Below, one piece after another: positions 8,020 through 29,506 of a stretch of 64,000 bases of DNA; position 1 is the first letter of the stretch; every line of letters begins with the position of its first letter. The position numbers were made by a program, and so were the translations under genes. Below the pieces are notes generated by a model. The model saw only the letters and a program-made list of their open reading frames with translations. It did not search any database and was not told where the DNA came from. This DNA comes from Escherichia coli (lineage in GTDB: Bacteria > Pseudomonadota > Gammaproteobacteria > Enterobacterales > Enterobacteriaceae), in the NCBI RefSeq assembly GCF_009931435.1, contig NZ_CP043414.1, one strand, 5' to 3'.

Positions 8020-9786
8020 TTAGTAAGTACGAATCTTCGGCGGGAATGCCGGGCGCAGTTTCGGTTCCATGTTGACGCTTCGGCGCGTCATGGATTCCGA
8101 CTCTGGCAGATACAGGGAGTGGCACAGCCAGTTTTCATCATCACGATCCGGGAAGTCGAAGCGGCTATGCGCGCCACGGCTTTCGGTACGGAAGTTGGCA
8201 GAAACAGCCGTTGCATACGCCGTTTCCATCAGGTTATCCAGTTCCAGGCATTCAACGCGCTGGGTGTTGAACTCGCTGGAAGTGTCATCCAGACGGGCAT
8301 TTTTCAAACGCTCGCGGATCACTTTCAACTGCTCAAGCCCTTTTGCCATCGCATCACCTTCACGGAAGACCGAGAAGTTATGCTGCATACATTCTTGCAG
8401 TGCTTTACGAATCGCCACTGGATCTTCACCATTACGGTTGTTGTTCCAGCGATTCAGACGATCCAGAGACGCTTCAACATCAGACTCGCTGGCATCGCGC
8501 AGTGCGCCCTGCTCGGCAATAGACTCTTGCAGATGCAGGCCCGCTGCGCGACCAAAGACCACCAGGTCCAGCAGCGAGTTGCCGCCAAGACGGTTAGCGC
8601 CGTGTACCGATACACAAGCGATTTCACCTACCGCGAACAGCCCCGGAACAACCACATCTTCGCCTTTCTCGTTCACCGTCAGCGCCTGACCGGTCACTTT
8701 GGTCGGAATACCGCCCATCATGTAGTGACAGGTTGGGATAACCGGAATCGGCTCTTTCACCGGATCGACGTGTGCGAAGGTACGGGAGAGTTCAAGGATA
8801 CCCGGCAGACGGGATTCGAGAACTTCTTTACCCAGGTGGTCGAGTTTCAGTTTTGCATGTGGCCCCCATGGACCATCACAGCCGCGACCTTCACGGATTT
8901 CGATCATGATGGAACGCGCCACCACGTCACGGCCCGCCAGATCTTTGGCATTCGGCGCATAACGCTCCATAAAGCGTTCGCCATGTTTGTTCAGCAGATA
9001 ACCGCCTTCACCACGGCAACCTTCGGTGACCAGTACGCCCGCACCTGCTATACCGGTCGGGTGGAACTGCCACATTTCCATATCCTGCACCGGTACACCT
9101 GCACGGATAGCCATGCCGACGCCATCTCCGGTGTTAATGTGCGCGTTGGTGGTGGACTGATAAATACGCCCTGCCCCGCCGGTTGCCAGCACAGTCGCAC
9201 GGGCTTTGAAGTAAACCACTTCACCGGTTTCGATGCACAGTGCGGTACAACCAACTACCGCGCCATCCTGGTTCTTCACCAGATCCAGCGCATACCACTC
9301 GGAGAAAATGGTGGTGTGGTTTTTCAGGTTCTGCTGATAAAGCGTGTGCAACAGTGCGTGACCGGTACGGTCAGCTGCCGCCGCAGTACGTGCCGCTTGC
9401 TCGCCACCGAAGTTTTTCGACTGGCCGCCAAACGGACGTTGATAGATACGACCATCATCAAGGCGCGAGAACGGCAGGCCCATGTGTTCCAGTTCCAGAA
9501 TCGCTTCCGGCCCGGTTTTACACATATATTCAATCGCGTCCTGGTCACCGATATAGTCCGACCCTTTTACGGTGTCGTACATATGCCATTCCCAGTTATC
9601 TTCATGGGTATTACCCAGCGCAACGGTAATGCCGCCTTGCGCAGAAACGGTATGGGAACGGGTCGGGAAGACTTTGGAGAGCAGCGCACAGGTTTGGCCG
9701 CTCTGGGAAATTTGCAGCGCCGCGCGCATACCTGCGCCACCGGCACCAATCACAACTGCATCAAATTCTCTGACTGGCAATTTCAT
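8020..9786 (-). CDS. sdhA: succinate dehydrogenase flavoprotein subunit
   Basis: ORF 8020..9798; start taken at [24 protein letters not shown] (588 aa), FAD-binding GxGxxG motif. Confidence 0.95.
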
Positions 9787-24673: not shown

Positions 24674-26086
24674 ACCTTTCTTCGCTTCTTCATACGCTGC
24701 CAGCGTTCGCAGCCTTGCCTCTTTGTGGTCAACTATCGGTTGCGGATAATCCAGCTTCACACCTGCTTTCTCTGCCCACTTCCACGGTTCATGCACCGCT
24801 TTCCCTGGTACATCGCGCAACTCTGGTAGCCACCGGCGAATAAACTCGCCCTCGCGGTCAAATTTCTCGCCCTGGGTTGTCGGGTTGAAAATACGAAAAT
24901 ACGGCGCTGCATCAGTACCCGTAGAAGCCGCCCACTGCCAGCCACCGTTATTGGCTGCCAAATCACCATCAATCAGCTGCGACATGAAATACCGCTCGCC
25001 TTCGCGCCAGTCGATCAACAAATCTTTCACCAAAAAGCTTGCTGTAATCATCCGTAGCCGATTATGCATCCAGCCAGTGCTGTTAAGCTGACGCATGGCC
25101 GCATCAACAATCGGGTATCCCGTTTTGCCTTCCTGCCAGGCCTTTAAATGCGCGGGATTACTTTGCCACTGTACGCGATCGGTCCAGGCAATAAAGGGGC
25201 GATGCTTACACAGTGACGGGTGATACGTCATCAAATGACGGTAGAACTCGCGCCAGATCAGCTCATTAAGCCAGACGCTACCAGCCCCGCCATCCAGCGC
25301 ATGCGGCTGTTCCGCCAACAGGCGATGCAGACACTGGCGAGGCGATAACCTACCCGTTGCAAGGCTTGCAGACAAACGGCTGGTGCCTTCCACTGCCGGA
25401 AAATCACGCTGCTGATCGTACTGACTCGCACCGTTCTGGCAAAACTGGCGTAATTGCGCAATCGCCGCTTTTTCTTCCACCGGGAAATGCGCGGTATCGA
25501 ATGACTGACGAGGGTAATTCAGCGTAATAGATGGCGCGGGATCTAATGATCCGCTACTCCGAACTTTTGGCGCAGCGACGCACTCCGGCATCCCTTCCCG
25601 CAGCCGTTTCAGCCAGGCGTTTTTAAATGGCGTAAAGACTTTGTACATCTCATGATTGCCAGTCATCACCGCCCCCGGCGGCAGGATCACGCTGTCATCA
25701 AATCCTTCACACACCACGTTACGCAGCGTTCTCTCAACCTGCACATCCCGCGCCCGCTCATTCACCTCATACTGATAGTTATAAAACAGATGGGTAACAC
25801 GGTTTTCCGCGCACACCTGTTTAACTATTTCGACGCTGGCGGCAAAGTCATCCACTTCATGAAACAGCAAAGGAATGCCTTTTTCCGCCAGCGCGATTTG
25901 TAGCCCGTTCAGTTGTGCATTGATAAATTCAGCCTGACGCGGCGACATATTATGCGCCGCCCACTGGCGTGGTGTAGCGATATACAACGCCAGCACGCGT
26001 GCAGACGAATTGCGGCAGGCGGCAGCAAGCGCGAGATTGTCGTGCAGACGTAAATCCTGGCGAAACCAGACCAGATGGGTAGTCAT
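24668..26086 (-). CDS. phr: deoxyribodipyrimidine photolyase
   Basis: 472-aa ORF MTTHLVWFRQDLRLHDNLALAAACRNSSARVLALYIATPRQW. Confidence 0.95.
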   Translation of the reverse strand: MTTHLVWFRQDLRLHDNLALAAACRNSSARVLALYIATPRQWAAHNMSPRQAEFINAQLNGLQIALAEKGIPLLFHEVDDFAASVEIVKQVCAENRVTHLFYNYQYEVNERARDVQVERTLRNVVCEGFDDSVILPPGAVMTGNHEMYKVFTPFKNAWLKRLREGMPECVAAPKVRSSGSLDPAPSITLNYPRQSFDTAHFPVEEKAAIAQLRQFCQNGASQYDQQRDFPAVEGTSRLSASLATGRLSPRQCLHRLLAEQPHALDGGAGSVWLNELIWREFYRHLMTYHPSLCKHRPFIAWTDRVQWQSNPAHLKAWQEGKTGYPIVDAAMRQLNSTGWMHNRLRMITASFLVKDLLIDWREGERYFMSQLIDGDLAANNGGWQWAASTGTDAAPYFRIFNPTTQGEKFDREGEFIRRWLPELRDVPGKAVHEPWKWAEKAGVKLDYPQPIVDHKEARLRTLAAYEEAKKGA

Positions 26087-26592
26087 AAAACTCCTGCATG
26101 GCGCAAGTTAATCACCCGCGGCCAAAGTTCGAAATAACGCTGCTCTGAAAGCCAGGCGTCAGGATAAAGCGCCATATAGTGTTTGATACGCATCAGCGGC
26201 GCAAGAAGCGGTTGCTCGCCACGGCGATAACTGTCGATAAGCGCCGCCAGCTGCTGGCGTTCTGTGGAATCAATATGTGGGCGAAAATAACCCTGAACGT
26301 GCATCAAAACGTTGGTGTGATCGCGCGGGTTGGCGGGATGAGAAAGCAAAACAATTACGCGTTGGCGGTACTGGTTGTAATAGTCACCCAGATTTTGCCA
26401 CTGGTGAATATCAGCCACAAACGGGCCAAGTTTGCGGTATTCCGGCTGGGAATGAGCCAGAAAGACGAGTTTATAGCGGCTGTGATAATCGAGAAGCGCC
26501 CCGCGCGTTAAGCCTCGCTCTTTAAGACGGTGTAACTCATGCAAAGCAAAAATGCGGATAAGGGTGCTGTCATCAAAAAGTTGTTGATTCAT
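26083..26592 (-). CDS. ybgA: DUF1722-family protein cotranscribed with phr
   Basis: 169-aa ORF MNQQLFDDSTLIRIFALHELHRLKERG, stop overlaps phr start. Confidence 0.9.
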   Translation of the reverse strand: MNQQLFDDSTLIRIFALHELHRLKERGLTRGALLDYHSRYKLVFLAHSQPEYRKLGPFVADIHQWQNLGDYYNQYRQRVIVLLSHPANPRDHTNVLMHVQGYFRPHIDSTERQQLAALIDSYRRGEQPLLAPLMRIKHYMALYPDAWLSEQRYFELWPRVINLRHAGVL

Positions 26593-26676
26593 TACTACTC
26601 CTGGGCGGTTTACAGGAGTAAGTGTAGACGGCGGTACTGAAAAAACGAAACGAATAAATGATAACAGTAAAAAAAT

Positions 26677-27126
26677 TCAATTATTCATAATAAATTTCAT
26701 GGTGGCAAGAAATAGTTTCTTTTCTTCATCACTCATGGCAGCAACGTTTAACATGTTGTCATCAAAATTATTGATGATATTTTTTAATTTCAGTAACTGC
26801 AAAGGAGAAAAATAGTCACTCCCGATGAGATTACTCAATACCAGCAATAGCTCCCCATCATATAAATAGCCCACCATAAGATTAATCTCTATCATCTCAA
26901 TTGCTTTTTGTACAGCAAGCGCCGGTAAGATATTCTGACGAAGCATTTTGGCAATATCATTTTCATCCAGTTCATCGGGTGTTTTATCTAATAAAGAATT
27001 ATACCAGTTTATTAAACCACTTTTGAAAGCGAACGAATCATATTGCAGGTGATAAATCTGTTTTAGGGTTTCTTTATTTTTCAATTTATAGTGCCTTTGT
27101 TTGCTATAATTTTTCTGAAATAACAT
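26677..27126 (-). CDS. hypothetical protein, 149 aa, AT-rich, predicted helical; immunity-protein-like by context
   Basis: ORF with ATG overlapping the stop of the upstream gene (TGATG); strongly AT-rich codon usage unlike flanking core genes. Confidence 0.6.
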   Translation of the reverse strand: MLFQKNYSKQRHYKLKNKETLKQIYHLQYDSFAFKSGLINWYNSLLDKTPDELDENDIAKMLRQNILPALAVQKAIEMIEINLMVGYLYDGELLLVLSNLIGSDYFSPLQLLKLKNIINNFDDNMLNVAAMSDEEKKLFLATMKFIMNN

Positions 27127-27593
27127 CAGCGAGTTTGCTCAGGTGCAGGGATGACCGAAATTGTCATGTATTTTTTCAGTCTGGCTTCTCGTTTCACACC
27201 TTTCGGATCTGAACCAAAAGGAAGCGTCAAGCATGGTGAGTCAACGGTTTGGATTGTCCAGAGAGAATCACCAATGAATCTGAAATTGATGCTATCCGCT
27301 GTAACGGATAATCCCTCAAAACTTCCCGTCGCATACTCATTACCCAAACGTACGGTCTCTTTAACTCCATCATTAACATCGATAAGGACAATTGTCAGTG
27401 ATTCCTCAAAAATAACGTCATCCGTCAGAAAAAGGATATAACGCTGGTCATTAACCTGAATTGCCGCTTCCAGTATTTGCCCTGGTACAATAATACCTGT
27501 GTTATTGCCATTGAGCACAACGTCAGACTGAGCCTGAGATAAATCAGTCGCTTTGTGAACCTTGACCAACGATATCGAATTAACCTGTTGCAT
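27126..27593 (-). CDS. hypothetical protein, 155 aa (start at MQQVNSISLVKVHKATD; the 186-aa track ORF is probably over-extended)
   Basis: ATG at 27593 two nt downstream of the stop of the glycine-zipper ORF; first 31 codons of the track ORF overlap that ORF in another frame. Confidence 0.6.
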   Translation of the reverse strand: MQQVNSISLVKVHKATDLSQAQSDVVLNGNNTGIIVPGQILEAAIQVNDQRYILFLTDDVIFEESLTIVLIDVNDGVKETVRLGNEYATGSFEGLSVTADSINFRFIGDSLWTIQTVDSPCLTLPFGSDPKGVKREARLKKYMTISVIPAPEQTR

Positions 27594-27595
27594 AA

Positions 27596-27736
27596 TCAAT
27601 TCCACAAGCGCCCCATTTCCCATGCGGCAAGTGCACCGCCGACAAAGCCGCCAATAAGTACGCAAACAGGTGCACCTGGACCACACACCAATCCTGCCAT
27701 CGCGCCGCCTGCGACAGCTCCGGCAATAATATTCAT
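27596..27736 (-). CDS. small glycine-zipper membrane peptide, 46 aa (MNIIAGAVAGGAMAGLVCGPGAPVCVLIGGFVGGALAAWEMGRLWN); candidate small toxin or C-terminal remnant of a polymorphic toxin
   Basis: translated by hand from the minus strand; repeated GxxxG/AxxxG motifs, two hydrophobic segments; weak Shine-Dalgarno; open frame continues 35 codons upstream to a TAG at 27842-27844 without a start codon. Confidence 0.4.
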   Translation of the reverse strand: MNIIAGAVAGGAMAGLVCGPGAPVCVLIGGFVGGALAAWEMGRLWN

Positions 27737-27919
27737 CCGGGTACGACTGCCAGTGGTTTTAACAGATTTGCGCTCACCGTTACGTATCCTGCCACCACTC
27801 AGGTTGCAGACGCGGCAGTCACAGCCTTGACGGTGTTGAAACTAAAGTTCAGGTGATAGTCTGATGTTCATAGTTTGAGCATTATCCCCTGACAGAATCA
27901 AATCAAGCAGTGTCAATGA

Positions 27920-28177
27920 TCACGTGTATATATCATTTAAAGCATTATCAAGCCAATCTTCCATGTTTTTAATTTTAGCCCGCGCATATAAATCATTCAT
28001 AACATCCTCATAACTCTGTCCATCATTGACCATACAATTAGCTGTATGAGGCAGAACATGTATAAAATCAGACAATATAAAACAAGCCTTTGAATTTCCA
28101 GAGTTAGCTGCAATTCTGATATCAATCAATCCTCTGGCAATCAATTTAAGAATAACATCTTGCATTTTAATTTCCAT
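27920..28177 (-). CDS. hypothetical protein, 85 aa, AT-rich
   Basis: ORF MEIKMQDVILKLIARGLIDIRIAANSGNSKACFILSDF downstream of the SUKH-like gene on the same strand. Confidence 0.45.
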   Translation of the reverse strand: MEIKMQDVILKLIARGLIDIRIAANSGNSKACFILSDFIHVLPHTANCMVNDGQSYEDVMNDLYARAKIKNMEDWLDNALNDIYT

Positions 28178-28259
28178 ATCATTCAGTTAAATTTCAGTAG
28201 TAAATCGTCTATCAAAAAAAGATGAAATTAACATTCATAAATTTATTACAATATGAAAA

Positions 28260-28613
28260 TCAAAAATATACATCATCAGCTTCTACCGAAAACTCCATGG
28301 CTCCTAAGGCACCTAAATCAATACTAAATATAGTATCACTTTCCTTAGCACTCCCAACATAGATAAAATAGCCTAAATCTCCGTCTTGACCTATCAAAAA
28401 ATAGTCAGGTTCCACTTGTTGAATATCATATGTTTCATTTCTTTCAATAAGATCAGAATAGTTATATAAATATAATGTTTCGTGCTTCTTATTAGTTATT
28501 TCATAGGTCTCACTATCTTTAATTTCTTCTATCAAAAAACGTTTATACACTGGAGGAAACTTGATTGACATGTCAAATTCAATTTTATTTATATATTCTA
28601 TAATTTTATTCAT
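28260..28613 (-). CDS. SMI1/KNR4 (SUKH)-like immunity-type protein, 117 aa
   Basis: motifs FPPVYKRFL and FLIGQDGDLGYFIYVG...IFSIDLG resemble the SUKH superfamily pattern; assignment by eye, not by search. Confidence 0.55.
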   Translation of the reverse strand: MNKIIEYINKIEFDMSIKFPPVYKRFLIEEIKDSETYEITNKKHETLYLYNYSDLIERNETYDIQQVEPDYFLIGQDGDLGYFIYVGSAKESDTIFSIDLGALGAMEFSVEADDVYF

Positions 28614-28848
28614 GTTAAGAATACCTGAAAGATTATTTATTGATTATCTTGATGAATATATCTTCACTTTTTATTTTCATTTACTCATCGCGGAAATACA
28701 CATTGCCTTGTAGACAAGCGCTAATAATACGTTATGAACCTGACTTCCGCCAGACAATCAATCAATGAATTCATTACGCCGTAGTGTTTTAGAAAGACAC
28801 TTTCTGACCAGATGGTGAACCATATACTACATCGCGCATTATAAAAAA

Positions 28849-28872
28849 ACCGCCAGCGTTTCCACTAGCGGT
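28849..28872 (-). terminator. intrinsic terminator downstream of ybfA
   Basis: imperfect hairpin accgccag-cgtttcca-ctagcggt with a U-run on the minus strand (plus-strand aaaaaaa at 28843-28849). Confidence 0.5.
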
Positions 28873-28897
28873 TTTCAATGTTTTCAAAACTCAGCAA

Positions 28898-29104
28898 TCA
28901 GTAAAAATCACCGGTTGCCTTTTCGGCCTGATCCATCCACACCGGTTTATCGCTGGTTTTCGACCAGACGCGGTGCAGGTAGCTGTAAAAGCGGGCGCGG
29001 TCTTTCCAGAAAAGCATGAAAGGCAGCGCCAGAACGCCCGCTGCAACCGCATAAGTACGGCGTAAAAAGATAAGCCATGCAGGATATTCTCTGTAAAGTT
29101 CCAT
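28898..29104 (-). CDS. ybfA: DUF2517-family small protein
   Basis: 68-aa [71 protein letters not shown]. Confidence 0.9.
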
Positions 29105-29416
29105 ACTTTTCTCCCCCTTTTGTATCTACCCGGTGAATGGCACCGGAAAAATGAATTTGTTTATCTGATGAAAATAGTACCGCCTTTTGTGTAATTTTAC
29201 TACTCATCCGACCACTTATTTTTGCTTATTGATGGTTTATTTACATTCATCCCGTAATTAAGTTACATAAAAGTTAAATTAATACTAAACATTAGTTAAA
29301 TCATGGCTTTTGCCATTTTTATACTTTTTTTACACCCCGTCCGCAGATTTTTGCGAAATCTTTGCAGCCAGAATTCTACCCTTCCGGTATCACTTTTAGG
29401 CCACTGGAGGTGCACT
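29105..29416 (+). promoter_or_regulatory. kdpFABC promoter region (KdpE-dependent)
   Basis: AT-rich spacer upstream of kdpF; function from established knowledge, binding site not mapped. Confidence 0.5.
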
Positions 29417-29506
29417 GTGAGTGCAGGCGTGATAACCGGCGTATTGCTGGTGTTTTTATTACTGGGTTATCTGGTTTATGCCCTGATCAATGCGGAGGCG
29501 TTCTGA
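29417..29506 (+). CDS. kdpF: K+-transporting ATPase small subunit F (29 aa, GTG start)
   Basis: GTG-initiated [29 protein letters not shown]; stop overlaps kdpA ATG (TGATG). Confidence 0.85.

What the first reader, a model, noticed from the sequence alone, without database searches (positions are those of the whole stretch)
27596..28177. The 85-aa ORF and the glycine-zipper ORF share one reading frame, interrupted only by two in-frame stops
Codon phase is identical for the 85-aa ORF (stop TGA at 27920-27922), a 25-codon stop-free stretch (SLTLLDLILSGDNAQTMNIRLSPEL), the TAG at 27842-27844, and the glycine-zipper open frame. This could be chance (1 in 3), or it could be the trace of one ancestral ~190-codon gene broken by two nonsense mutations. 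The sharp AT-rich to GC-rich switch near 27840 argues instead for a recombination junction between modules of different origin.
Basis: seen in the sequence. Interest (0 to 1): 0.25.

Follow-up and report, generated by a model that had tools for sequence, protein, structure and literature searches.

The report
IS630 scar between unrelated gene remnants
The shared reading frame is real, but it joins three unrelated pieces: a small E. coli gene cut short by a mobile element, the decayed remnant of that element, and the last 43 codons of a toxin gene. It is ordinary genome decay, not one broken gene.

Summary
On the minus strand, 28177-27596 is one frame of 194 codons with stops only at 27922-27920 (TGA), 27844-27842 (TAG) and the end.

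The single-gene reading is refuted. The stretch is a mosaic of three origins.

1. **The 85-aa ORF.** It is a C-terminally clipped copy of a 94-aa Escherichia-specific gene. Its last two codons and its TGA come from an inserted IS630-family element.
2. **An IS630 remnant, 27928-27729.** It is colinear with intact elements on Pantoea and Serratia plasmids. The "25-codon stretch" is the IS left end plus the transposase start (MNIRLSPE). The TAG is a GAG-to-TAG nonsense change at transposase codon 14. The remnant also has a 12-nt and a ~453-nt in-frame internal deletion.
3. **The glycine-zipper ORF, 27728-27596.** This is the last 43 codons of a ~240-aa helical toxin family that is stand-alone or PAAR-linked. 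The family is always followed by the 155-aa partner found at 27593-27126. The annotated ATG at 27736 is IS-derived.

No genome or protein database entry joins the two parts. Both stops are invariant in 12 other copies. About 157 E. coli genomes carry the first gene without the rest.

The AT-to-GC switch near 27840 is intrinsic to the IS, not a junction. This is ordinary and of low interest.

The parts
26631..28843 (.). Variable islet between ybfA and ybgA. E. coli K-12 carries the 9.6-kb RhsC element in this interval.
   Evidence: Homology to K-12 ends at 28844 and resumes at 26630. None of the islet ORFs has a relative in the K-12 RhsC element.
28260..28613 (-). 117-aa ORF, weakly SUKH/SMI1-KNR4-like (an immunity-type protein). 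This is context only.
   Evidence: Pfam SMI1_KNR4 E = 1.4e-4, below the family cut-off. PGAP names the allele in strain SCU-482 'SMI1/KNR4 family'. dN/dS is 0.05 against the SCU-482 allele.
27920..28177 (-). 85-aa ORF. It has 83 native codons (28177-27929), then Tyr-Thr-stop (27928-27920) supplied by the inserted IS630 end. It is a clipped allele of a 94-aa gene.
   Evidence: The uninterrupted allele ends ...NALNDIELNQKNSGK*, seen in SCU-482 and in P0059-P0061. Homology to that allele stops at 27929. A 50%-identical relative, P0068 (83 aa), ends at the same place...RDIQK.
27929..27930 (.). TA dinucleotide at the IS insertion point. It is the presumed left copy of the TA target-site duplication typical of IS630/Tc1-mariner elements.
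   Evidence: The recipient sequence is AATGATA-TA-GAATT in SCU-482. The window reads AATGATA-TA-TACACGTGATC. All four IS copies compared begin TATAC(C/A)(C/T)GTGATCATTGA after unrelated flanks. The right end is missing, so the duplication cannot be confirmed.
27729..27928 (-). Internally deleted remnant of an IS630-family insertion sequence: left end, 5' UTR, transposase codons 1-9 and 14-27, then codons ~178-203.
   Evidence: It is colinear in two pieces with intact elements on a Pantoea dispersa plasmid (L034; transposase 340 aa, annotated IS630 family) and a Serratia marcescens plasmid (L036), and with a decayed Klebsiella copy (L035). A related element in L013 hits Pfam HTH_29, HTH_33 and DDE_3. 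PGAP marks part of it as a partial IS630 transposase pseudogene.
27869..27871 (-). Start codon of the IS630 transposase.
   Evidence: It aligns to the annotated start of the L034 transposase, MNIRLSPEQIAALEAQHR.
27847..27848 (.). Site of a 12-nt in-frame deletion (CAGATTGCCGCC, encoding QIAA) in the transposase remnant.
   Evidence: All three reference IS copies carry these 12 nt and the window lacks them.
27842..27844 (-). The TAG stop. It is a GAG-to-TAG nonsense substitution at transposase codon 14.
   Evidence: L034, L035 and L036 all read CTT GAG GCT CAG CAC, while the window reads CTT TAG TTT CAA CAC. The TAG is invariant in 12 other copies of the locus.
27803..27805 (.). Junction of a ~453-nt in-frame internal deletion that joins transposase codon ~27 to codon ~178.
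   Evidence: The two BLAST pieces against L034 have offsets that differ by 453 nt and overlap by 3 nt.
27596..27728 (-). 3' stump of a ~240-aa alpha-helical glycine-zipper toxin gene: the last 43 codons plus the stop.
   Evidence: DNA homology to intact genes in Citrobacter, Kosakonia and metagenome loci starts sharply at 27728, at TATTGCCGG. The protein alignment covers only residues 198-240 of the family. Intact 235-240-aa genes are in L006, L008, L009, L012, L013, L015, L018 and L021.
27596..27736 (-). The annotated 46-aa 'glycine-zipper ORF'. It is a chimera: the ATG and the next two codons are IS630-derived and the rest is toxin tail. It is probably not a real gene.
   Evidence: The ATG lies in the transposase motif SRTRMNII. 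There is no Shine-Dalgarno-like sequence upstream. PGAP calls it hypothetical in one genome and a pseudogene in eleven.
27126..27593 (-). 155-aa ORF, the conserved partner of the toxin and a presumed cytoplasmic immunity protein. Here it is an orphan.
   Evidence: A homologue follows the toxin gene, with the TGAttATG spacing, wherever the toxin tail is detectable among the 17 genome loci plus 2 metagenome loci. dN/dS is 0.14-0.29. It is 100% conserved at protein level in most Escherichia copies. It has no Pfam, NCBIfam, PADLOC or PHROG match.
27116..27125 (-). 3' flank of the toxin-immunity cassette and its right junction, with TCA microhomology at 27118-27116.
   Evidence: Homology to donor-type loci runs 10 nt past the stop, to ...TGTTATTTCA. 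From 27115 downward the sequence matches the cassette-free SCU-482 allele.
26677..27126 (-). CdiI_3-family immunity ORF (149 aa, or 135 aa as annotated). This is context only.
   Evidence: Pfam PF18616 CdiI_3 E = 1.7e-17. PGAP names it 'contact-dependent growth inhibition system immunity protein'.

Best explanation
The 582-nt frame is a mosaic left by decay of a small toxin-immunity islet in the ybfA-ybgA interval, the site that holds the RhsC element in K-12.

Shown:
- An IS630-family element sits at a TA inside the last codons of a 94-aa Escherichia gene. The gene now ends after 83 native codons plus Tyr-Thr-TGA, all read from the IS end. This is the '85-aa ORF'.
- Only 200 nt of the IS remain (27928-27729): left end, 5' UTR, the transposase start MNIRLSPE, a 12-nt deletion, a GAG-to-TAG nonsense change, codons 15-27, a ~453-nt internal deletion, and codons ~178-203.
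- At a 5-nt microhomology (TATTG) the transposase remnant is joined to the last 43 codons of a ~240-aa helical glycine-zipper toxin gene. Its intact 155-aa partner gene follows.

Inferred:
- The IS inserted here. Later deletions removed its 3' part together with the first ~197 codons of the toxin.
- The partner gene survives as an orphan immunity gene, useful against neighbours that still make the toxin.
- The toxin is an antibacterial membrane-depolarising effector, delivered by type VI secretion in at least some lineages.
- The common reading frame has no function. It reflects one insertion phase (1/3) plus junctions that happen to be multiples of three.
For: - Frame and stops.
- The 85-aa gene is separate. 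The region 28250-27929 occurs in 170 of 5426 complete E. coli genomes, and only 13 of them carry 27925-27126. In SCU-482 the gene is an uninterrupted 92-94-aa ORF running straight into the CdiI_3 region. All 29 database relatives are 51-112 aa, and a 50%-identical one ends at the same C-terminus.
- IS remnant: there are two colinear matches to intact IS630-family elements. The transposase ATG, the 12-nt gap and GAG versus TAG are visible in the alignment. The reference elements hit DDE_3 and HTH domains. PGAP annotates a pseudogene there.
- Toxin stump: there is a sharp DNA breakpoint at 27728. Only the last 43 residues align to the 240-aa family. Intact genes with the partner lie in 8 loci from 7 genera, and further stumps with the partner lie in L007, L010, L011 and L012.
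- The family has 836 representative clusters. There is a PAAR fusion (P0071) and a PAAR gene two genes upstream in Duganella.
- No protein hits both halves. No locus holds both an intact toxin gene and an orf85 relative.
- Both stops are invariant in 12 other copies from E. coli and genomes sized and named as E. fergusonii.
- The GC step is intrinsic to the IS.
Against: - The order of events is not resolved. The cassette-free allele (about 157 genomes) could be ancestral or could be a clean secondary loss.
- The IS right end is gone, so the TA duplication cannot be verified.
- No other copy of this IS type was found in the 5426 complete E. coli genomes, so where the insertion happened is unclear.
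- Four independent phase relations are all in frame: gene to IS, the 12-nt deletion, the 453-nt deletion, and IS to toxin. A priori that is about 1/81.
- The toxic activity and the immunity function are inferred from synteny and domain fusions only.
- Only one of the ~157 cassette-free genomes and 5 of the 13 cassette-bearing E. coli records were inspected base by base.
Confidence: 0.9

Rival explanations
1. One ancestral gene of ~190 codons spanned 28177-27596 and was inactivated by two nonsense mutations (TGA and TAG).
For: The frame is continuous with only two internal stops. The TAG really is a nonsense substitution of a sense codon.
Against: - The TGA lies in the terminal sequence of an inserted IS, not in a mutated codon.
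- The three segments have three unrelated sets of homologues.
- The orf85 family ends naturally at this point.
- The glycine-zipper part is residues 198-240 of a 240-aa protein whose N-terminal 197 residues are unrelated to orf85.
- No fused form appears in 5.8 billion protein clusters, in 1.84 billion representatives, in 5426 E. coli genomes or in 100,044 species genomes.
- The stops are invariant.
Confidence: 0.01
2. The chain of in-frame joins is not accidental. On this reading the chimeric stump ORF is or was translated. That ORF is 46 aa from ATG 27736, or, before the TAG arose, a fusion of about 105 aa between the transposase N-terminus and the toxin hairpin. It would serve either as a leader that keeps the orphan 155-aa gene translationally coupled (stop and start are TGAttATG) or as a residual membrane-active peptide that makes the immunity gene addictive.
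For: - Three successive junctions inside the remnant preserve the frame.
- The 46-aa ORF is open in all 13 copies examined.
- The 155-aa gene lacks an obvious ribosome-binding site of its own and starts 2 nt after the stump's stop.
- The stump retains the invariant GPGAPVCV...GGALAAW core of the family.
Against: - There is no Shine-Dalgarno-like sequence before ATG 27736.
- The TAG now blocks any longer fusion.
- Most copies carry three clustered amino-acid changes in the stump (M160L, A161T, V164M), while the 155-aa protein is unchanged. That pattern suggests relaxed constraint on the stump.
- Stumps of different lengths without such ORFs accompany the partner gene in other genera.
- There are no expression data.
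Confidence: 0.07
3. A fused protein is made by programmed stop-codon read-through or recoding, with TGA read as Sec or Trp and TAG read as Pyl or suppressed.
For: A database protein (P0070) reads ...NDIYTWSLTLLD..., that is, straight through the TGA.
Against: The DNA of that contig still has TGA, and the tool reports that it does not translate to the query under code 11. The W is a gene-calling artefact of a TGA=Trp code on an AT-rich short contig. No Rfam element such as SECIS is found in 26000-29500. From general knowledge, E. coli has no pyrrolysine system. The segments joined are an IS end and a pseudogene.
Confidence: 0.01
4. The glycine-zipper ORF is a small secreted bacteriocin or class II microcin whose precursor has a double-glycine leader (the ...NLSGG motif upstream).
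For: There are weak Pfam Bacteriocin_IIc hits (E = 0.003-0.4) on the glycine-rich tail, and an 'LSGG' motif in the open frame.
Against: All hits are far below the family cut-off of 27.1 bits. The LSGG is the transposase motif KLSGGWIRRGE. The tail belongs to a 240-aa protein without a leader. No export or maturation genes lie nearby.
Confidence: 0.01

Closest known systems
Orphan immunity genes and toxin-gene stumps in Rhs, CDI and T6SS polymorphic-toxin loci. The concept comes from the literature on polymorphic toxins, e.g. PMC3482391; the comparison rests on my own knowledge.
   Same: An array of small AT-rich immunity-type genes (SUKH-like, CdiI_3, the 155-aa partner) sits at a known Rhs site. 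A 3' toxin fragment without a start is retained upstream of its intact immunity gene. The pattern recurs in several genera.
   Different: No Rhs or CdiA main gene and no Rhs core repeat remain in the interval. The toxin is not an Rhs or CdiA C-terminal domain but a stand-alone or PAAR-linked 240-aa protein. The truncation is marked by an IS630 scar rather than by homologous displacement.
IS630-family (IS630/Tc1/mariner superfamily) insertion sequences
   Same: The left terminal sequence, the 5' UTR and two transposase segments are colinear with annotated IS630-family elements. The insertion abuts a TA. The reference elements have HTH plus DDE_3 architecture.
   Different: Only 200 of about 1.1 kb remain, with two internal deletions, a nonsense codon and no right end. 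The remnant is non-functional. No intact sibling exists in complete E. coli genomes.
Membrane-depolarising T6SS effectors with glycine-rich helices: Tse5-CT (PMC9637101), Ssp6 (PMC6889166), and Tke5 of the BTH_I2691 family (PMC12909789)
   Same: The protein is all-alpha with C-terminal hydrophobic, Gly/Ala-rich helices. It is a small effector gene followed closely by its partner gene. It occurs as a PAAR fusion or next to a PAAR gene in some lineages.
   Different: There is no sequence-family match: Pfam, NCBIfam and PDB sequence searches find none, and BTH_I2691 is not hit by any of 58 members. There is no fold match in the PDB. The partner is a 155-aa soluble protein without predicted membrane segments, whereas Sip6 is a 67-aa protein with two transmembrane helices. 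The activity is untested.

Membership tests
Single gene split by nonsense mutations (unitary pseudogene) | An uninterrupted orthologue exists in some genome. | tested here: not met
   None was found in 5426 E. coli genomes, in 100,044 species genomes scanned with the adjacent 155-aa gene plus 9-kb flanks, or in the two protein collections.
Single gene split by nonsense mutations (unitary pseudogene) | Both halves align to one protein family. | tested here: not met
   orf85 relatives are 51-112 aa and restricted to Escherichia. Relatives of the glycine-zipper tail are 235-414-aa toxins. No protein is hit by both.
Single gene split by nonsense mutations (unitary pseudogene) | The stops are substitutions of sense codons and are polymorphic among strains. 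| tested here: not met
   The TGA lies in the IS terminal sequence. The TAG is a substitution, but within a transposase frame. Both are invariant in 12 other copies.
IS630-family insertion sequence (remnant) | Terminal sequence and transposase are colinear with recognised family members. | tested here: met
   The match to L034 is 75-84% and the match to L035 and L036 is 83-90%. It comes in two colinear pieces that start at the element's left end and include the annotated start codon.
IS630-family insertion sequence (remnant) | Insertion at a TA with TA duplication. | tested here: inconclusive
   The left junction is consistent: the recipient ...GATA-TA-GAA becomes ...GATA-TA-[TACACGTGATC...]. 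The right end is deleted, so the second TA cannot be seen.
IS630-family insertion sequence (remnant) | DDE_3 transposase with an N-terminal helix-turn-helix. | tested here: inconclusive
   The 43-aa fragment alone gives no Pfam hit. The homologous segment of the L013 element hits DDE_3 (E = 4e-8), and its N-terminal ORF hits HTH_29 and HTH_33. Membership therefore rests on homology to annotated elements.
Polymorphic toxin-immunity pair / T6SS effector-immunity pair (toxin stump plus 155-aa gene) | The toxin domain is fused to, or encoded next to, T6SS spike components (PAAR, VgrG, Hcp) in some members. | tested here: met
   P0071 has an N-terminal PAAR motif (E = 5e-18) fused to the domain. 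In Duganella L021 a PAAR gene (E = 1e-22) lies two genes upstream. In L009 a Tlde1-domain gene is adjacent.
Polymorphic toxin-immunity pair / T6SS effector-immunity pair (toxin stump plus 155-aa gene) | A conserved small partner gene lies immediately downstream of the toxin gene. | tested here: met
   The partner follows the toxin or stump in L004-L013, L015, L018 and L021, with the same TGAttATG spacing in the close relatives.
Polymorphic toxin-immunity pair / T6SS effector-immunity pair (toxin stump plus 155-aa gene) | The toxin is toxic, and the partner specifically neutralises it. | not testable with these tools
   This needs expression and competition experiments.
Colicin-type pore-forming domain | Sequence or fold match to the 10-helix colicin channel domain. 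| tested here: not met
BTH_I2691 family T6SS effectors (Tke5, Ptx2) | Match to NCBIfam NF041559. | tested here: not met
   There is one fragment hit at E = 0.63. None of the 58 full-length members hits it at E <= 0.1.
Ssp6-like T6SS pore-forming effectors | Homology to Ssp6, and a ~67-aa immunity protein with two transmembrane helices encoded downstream. | tested here: inconclusive
The partner here is a 155-aa soluble protein, unlike Sip6 as described in PMC6889166.
Class II microcin / Bacteriocin_IIc | A double-glycine leader and a match to PF10439 above its cut-off. | tested here: not met
   The best score is 17.9 bits against a cut-off of 27.1. The 'LSGG' is the transposase motif KLSGGW.
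Rhs element / orphan Rhs C-terminal fragment | Rhs core repeats or a core-CT junction upstream of the toxin fragment, or the toxin domain found at Rhs C-termini. | tested here: not met
   There is no similarity to the K-12 RhsC element. Among the best 150 family representatives the domain is stand-alone or has short N-terminal extensions. The longest N-terminal extension is 531 aa in total length, and one 1360-aa protein carries the domain at its N-terminus.

The most novel reading that the evidence does not exclude
The unbroken phase across four independent joins may be a trace of selection rather than chance. The joins are gene to IS, a 12-nt deletion, a 453-nt deletion, and IS to toxin. On this reading a chimeric peptide is or was translated. 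Its start codon comes from an IS630 transposase fragment, and its body is the transmembrane glycine-zipper hairpin of a T6SS-type toxin. It would act either as a coupling leader needed to express the orphan immunity gene or as a residual toxin that makes that immunity gene addictive. That would be a toxin-antitoxin-like module born from a decayed interbacterial weapon.
Probability: 0.06. Interest if true: 0.45.

Novelty: new member of a known kind. Interest (0 to 1): 0.15.

Why it matters
For the finding itself, it matters little. It is a worked example of how an insertion-sequence scar and gene stumps can look like a single broken gene.

It also corrects public annotation in three ways.
- The 46-aa 'hypothetical protein' is a chimera of IS and toxin-tail sequence.
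- The PGAP 'IS630 pseudogene' covers only part of the true remnant and runs into toxin sequence.
- The 85-aa protein is a truncated allele.

The by-product is more useful. The stump identifies a sizeable family of helical glycine-zipper proteins that no library names. It has 836 clusters at 50% identity and is PAAR-linked in some lineages. It has a conserved soluble 155-aa partner that E. coli, E. fergusonii and E. albertii keep as an orphan. That pair is a testable candidate T6SS effector-immunity system.

Tried and rejected
- **Rhs or CdiA orphan fragment.** My first expectation was that the glycine-zipper frame would be the tip of an Rhs or CdiA toxin. I rejected this because the intact relatives are 235-240-aa stand-alone genes.
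- **Anti-phage defence system.** The pair sits beside P4-like primase and integrase genes in Citrobacter, a soil metagenome-assembled genome (L006) and Rosenbergiella. PADLOC gave no hit, and the PAAR fusions point to T6SS instead. This reading is not excluded for the phage-satellite copies.
- **First search for the origin of 27925-27729.** A comparison with a single diverged IS copy (L013) explained only 27805-27727. It wrongly suggested that the upstream 120 nt were unrelated. A plasmid search then found closer elements and resolved the whole stretch.
- **P0070, an apparent read-through protein.** It is an artefact of genetic code 4.
- **Local signals.** Promoter and terminator scans, the Rfam scan and the repeat scan of the islet showed nothing informative.
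- **AFDB fold search.** It was unavailable.
- **dN/dS of the CdiI_3 gene.** It failed on an internal stop in the comparison copy.
Full report
**1. The observation.**

On the minus strand, window 28177-27596 translates as a single frame. It reads an 85-aa ORF, TGA (27922-27920), 25 sense codons (SLTLLDLILSGDNAQTMNIRLSPEL), TAG (27844-27842), then 81 sense codons ending in a Gly/Ala-rich tail and TGA (27598-27596). Between the ORFs the other two frames contain 5 and 7 stops. A 25-codon open run in sequence of this composition has p = 0.20 by shuffling, and a shared phase has p = 1/3. The composition step near 27840 is real.

**2. Where this is.**

The window is Escherichia coli and is 100% identical to strain 2020CK-00188 over this stretch. 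The finding lies in a 2.2-kb islet (26631-28843) between ybfA and ybgA. In K-12 that interval holds the 9.6-kb RhsC element.

The islet carries five features, all on the minus strand:
- a 117-aa weakly SUKH-like ORF;
- the 85-aa ORF;
- the glycine-zipper frame;
- a 155-aa ORF;
- a CdiI_3-family immunity ORF.

**3. The 85-aa ORF is a separate gene, and it is clipped.**

Its DNA (28250-27929) occurs in 170 of 5426 complete E. coli genomes. Only 13 of them also have 27925-27126. In the others the match ends at 27929. In the one I read in full (SCU-482), the gene runs on for nine more codons (...NALNDIELNQKKS*) straight into the region upstream of the CdiI_3 gene.

All 29 relatives in a 5.8-billion-cluster protein collection are 51-112 aa and come from E. 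coli or E. fergusonii. The commonest longer allele is 94 aa (...NDIELNQKNSGK). A 50%-identical, 83-aa relative ends at the same place (...RDIQK). So the natural C-terminus lies within a few codons of the TGA. There is no room for another 100 codons.

**4. The middle 200 nt are an IS630-family scar.**

A plasmid search with 27925-27729 found two colinear matches. They fall in an annotated IS630-family element of a Pantoea dispersa plasmid (L034), in a Serratia marcescens plasmid (L036), and in a decayed Klebsiella copy (L035).

The alignments show the following.
- **Left end.** All four copies share the left end TATAC(C/A)(C/T)GTGATCATTGA... after unrelated flanks. In the window this end starts at 27928, directly after a TA of the recipient sequence AATGATA-TA-GAATT. 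The codons TAC-ACG-TGA that finish the 85-aa ORF are therefore IS sequence.
- **Transposase start.** The transposase start codon is 27871-27869.
- **12-nt deletion.** The window lacks the 12 nt encoding QIAA, which all references have.
- **The TAG.** It stands where all references have GAG (Glu14), so it is a true nonsense mutation, but in the transposase.
- **FQHRQGCDCRVCN.** This corresponds to the transposase segment AQHRLSRDRRVCD.
- **Internal deletion.** About 453 nt are deleted at 27805-27803.
- **NLSGGRIRNGERKSVKTTGSRTRMNI.** This is the transposase segment KLSGGWIRRGERKPVKTIGSRTRMNI, at codons ~178-203.

A related element in locus L013 carries HTH_29, HTH_33 and DDE_3 domains. PGAP independently marks 27802-27683 as a partial IS630 transposase pseudogene in eleven genomes.

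Intact elements show the same rise in GC, from 0.44 to about 0.6, some 27 nt into the transposase gene. The AT-to-GC switch near 27840 is therefore a property of the IS and not a recombination junction.

**5. The glycine-zipper ORF is the last 43 codons of a 240-aa toxin gene.**

Protein relatives of the open frame match only its C-terminal part. I scanned one genome per species with the neighbouring 155-aa protein and read the upstream frames. This found intact 235-240-aa genes in Citrobacter, an unnamed enterobacterial genome, a soil genome, Rosenbergiella, an Enterobacterales metagenome-assembled genome, Pantoea, Brenneria and Duganella. Each is followed by a homologue of the 155-aa gene.

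DNA homology to these genes begins abruptly at window 27728 (TATTGCCGG). Only residues 198-240 of the family align. The junction shares TATTG with the transposase sequence ...ATGAATATTATTGG. The annotated ATG at 27736 is therefore IS-derived, and the 46-aa ORF is a chimera. Homology to the cassette continues 10 nt beyond the 155-aa gene's stop, to about 27116. There the sequence rejoins the cassette-free allele at a TCA.

The toxin family has the following properties.
- A profile search of 1.84 billion representatives gives 836 family members, mostly 230-330 aa.
- In Duganella a PAAR gene lies two genes upstream. In another locus a Tlde1-domain gene is adjacent.
- No Pfam, NCBIfam, PADLOC or PDB-sequence match exists.
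- An AlphaFold model (pLDDT 84) is all-helical with a long C-terminal Gly/Ala-rich helix. It has no specific fold match in the PDB.
- Sources call these proteins 'hypothetical', and once 'glycine zipper family protein'.

Truncated toxin genes or short stumps next to an intact partner recur in Kosakonia, Lelliottia, Enterobacter and Rosenbergiella. This is the usual fate of such pairs.

**6. Direct tests of the one-gene idea.**

- No protein in any set retrieved matches both halves.
- No locus with an intact toxin gene has an orf85 relative.
- The 12 other copies of the arrangement carry both stops unchanged. They come from E. coli and, judging by database names and genome sizes, E. fergusonii.
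- One database protein that seems to read through the TGA (P0070) comes from a contig whose DNA still has TGA. The W is a gene-calling artefact.

**7. Most likely history.**

The pieces and junctions above are shown. The order of events is inferred.

An IS630-family element inserted at a TA in the last codons of the 94-aa gene. The element then decayed through the 12-nt deletion, the nonsense codon and the 453-nt deletion. A microhomology-mediated deletion or replacement joined its interior to codon 198 of the toxin gene, removing the IS right end and the toxin's first 197 codons. The 155-aa gene stayed intact: dN/dS is 0.14-0.29 against other genera, and the protein is identical across most Escherichia copies.

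I cannot tell whether the cassette-free allele is ancestral or a later clean loss. No sibling of this IS is present in complete E. coli genomes.

**8. What remains unexplained.**

All four phase relations keep the frame: gene to IS, the two internal deletions, and IS to toxin. A priori that is about 1/81. I attribute it to chance plus the fact that the locus was selected for this property. A past or present translated chimera is not excluded (rival 2, about 6-7%). One possibility is a leader that keeps the orphan gene translationally coupled, since the stop and start read TGAttATG.

**9. Comparison with known systems, and verdict.**

The locus is a decayed toxin-immunity islet with an IS scar, which is a familiar kind of object. 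It works like orphan-immunity arrays at Rhs and CDI loci, but it contains no Rhs or CdiA gene. The stump's parent family works like small membrane-targeting T6SS effectors. It fails the membership tests for colicin pore domains, the BTH_I2691 family and class II microcins. It differs from Ssp6-Sip6 in its partner protein.

The finding as posed is explained and ordinary, so interest is low. The unnamed toxin and partner family is the only item that deserves follow-up.

Noticed in passing
L008:8276-8998 and 9001-9468 (Citrobacter); also L006, L009, L012, L013, L015, L018, L021; window 27126-27728: An unnamed family of ~240-aa all-helical glycine-zipper proteins has 836 clusters at 50% identity. 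It always comes with a soluble ~155-aa partner, and it is PAAR-fused or PAAR-adjacent in some lineages. It matches no Pfam, NCBIfam or PADLOC family and no PDB fold. It is a candidate new T6SS effector-immunity family. The soluble, apparently cytoplasmic partner is unusual for a membrane-targeting toxin.
   Followed up: partly
window 27695-27719: The window and strain 2020CK-00188 differ from all other E. coli and E. fergusonii copies by five substitutions clustered within 25 nt of the toxin stump (GGAMAGL versus GGALTGL). The window allele equals the consensus of intact toxin genes in other genera. This suggests a multi-nucleotide change or a conversion patch in the other lineage. The adjacent 468-nt partner gene encodes an identical protein in most copies.
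   Followed up: no
L012:4090-5282 and L012:8861-9474 (Rosenbergiella); L007:7417-8390; L010; L011: Truncated toxin genes or short 3' stumps lie next to an intact partner gene independently in several genera. In one case an intact pair sits in the same locus. Loss of the toxin with retention of the partner is therefore recurrent.
   Followed up: partly
L008:4500-8050, L006:1431-3482, L012:2320-3813, L005:6175-7347: In enterobacterial genomes the intact pair often sits just after a P4-type primase (Toprim plus D5_N plus Pox_D5), or beside an integrase or P2-like tail genes. It appears to be cargo at the edge of phage-satellite or prophage islands. An anti-phage role for these copies was not excluded.
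   Followed up: partly
window 27683-27802 (PGAP features in L003, L029-L031); window 27596-27736 (WP_157943798.1 in L001): The public annotation is inconsistent. The same DNA is called a 46-aa hypothetical protein in one genome and a partial IS630 transposase pseudogene in eleven. The pseudogene range overruns into toxin-derived sequence and misses the IS left end at 27928-27803.
   Followed up: yes
L032:1268-1459 (Logan contig SRR20950905_330370), protein P0070: A database protein reads through the TGA as Trp although the DNA has TGA. The short AT-rich contig was evidently gene-called with a TGA=Trp code. This is a caution for using such collections to test stop-codon polymorphism.
   Followed up: yes
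window 26677-27126; L002:8339-8776: The start of the CdiI_3 immunity gene is ambiguous. It is 149 aa from an ATG overlapping the stop of the 155-aa gene, but 135 aa as annotated. In the cassette-free SCU-482 allele the gene is only 64% identical and is annotated as a 62-aa fragment, so it appears to be decaying there.
   Followed up: no
L015:6586-7710 (Pantoea varia): Immediately upstream of the intact toxin pair lies another small toxin-immunity pair. It is a 249-aa protein with a CdiA-CT RNase A domain plus a CdiI_2 immunity protein. The domain sits on a short N-terminal region rather than on CdiA.
   Followed up: no
L013:2964-3700: The IS630-family copy in this Enterobacterales metagenome-assembled genome appears to be interrupted itself by an IS1-like element. 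This is judged by eye from an InsA-like ORF, MARVIVHCPRCQSAQVCRHGQ...
   Followed up: no
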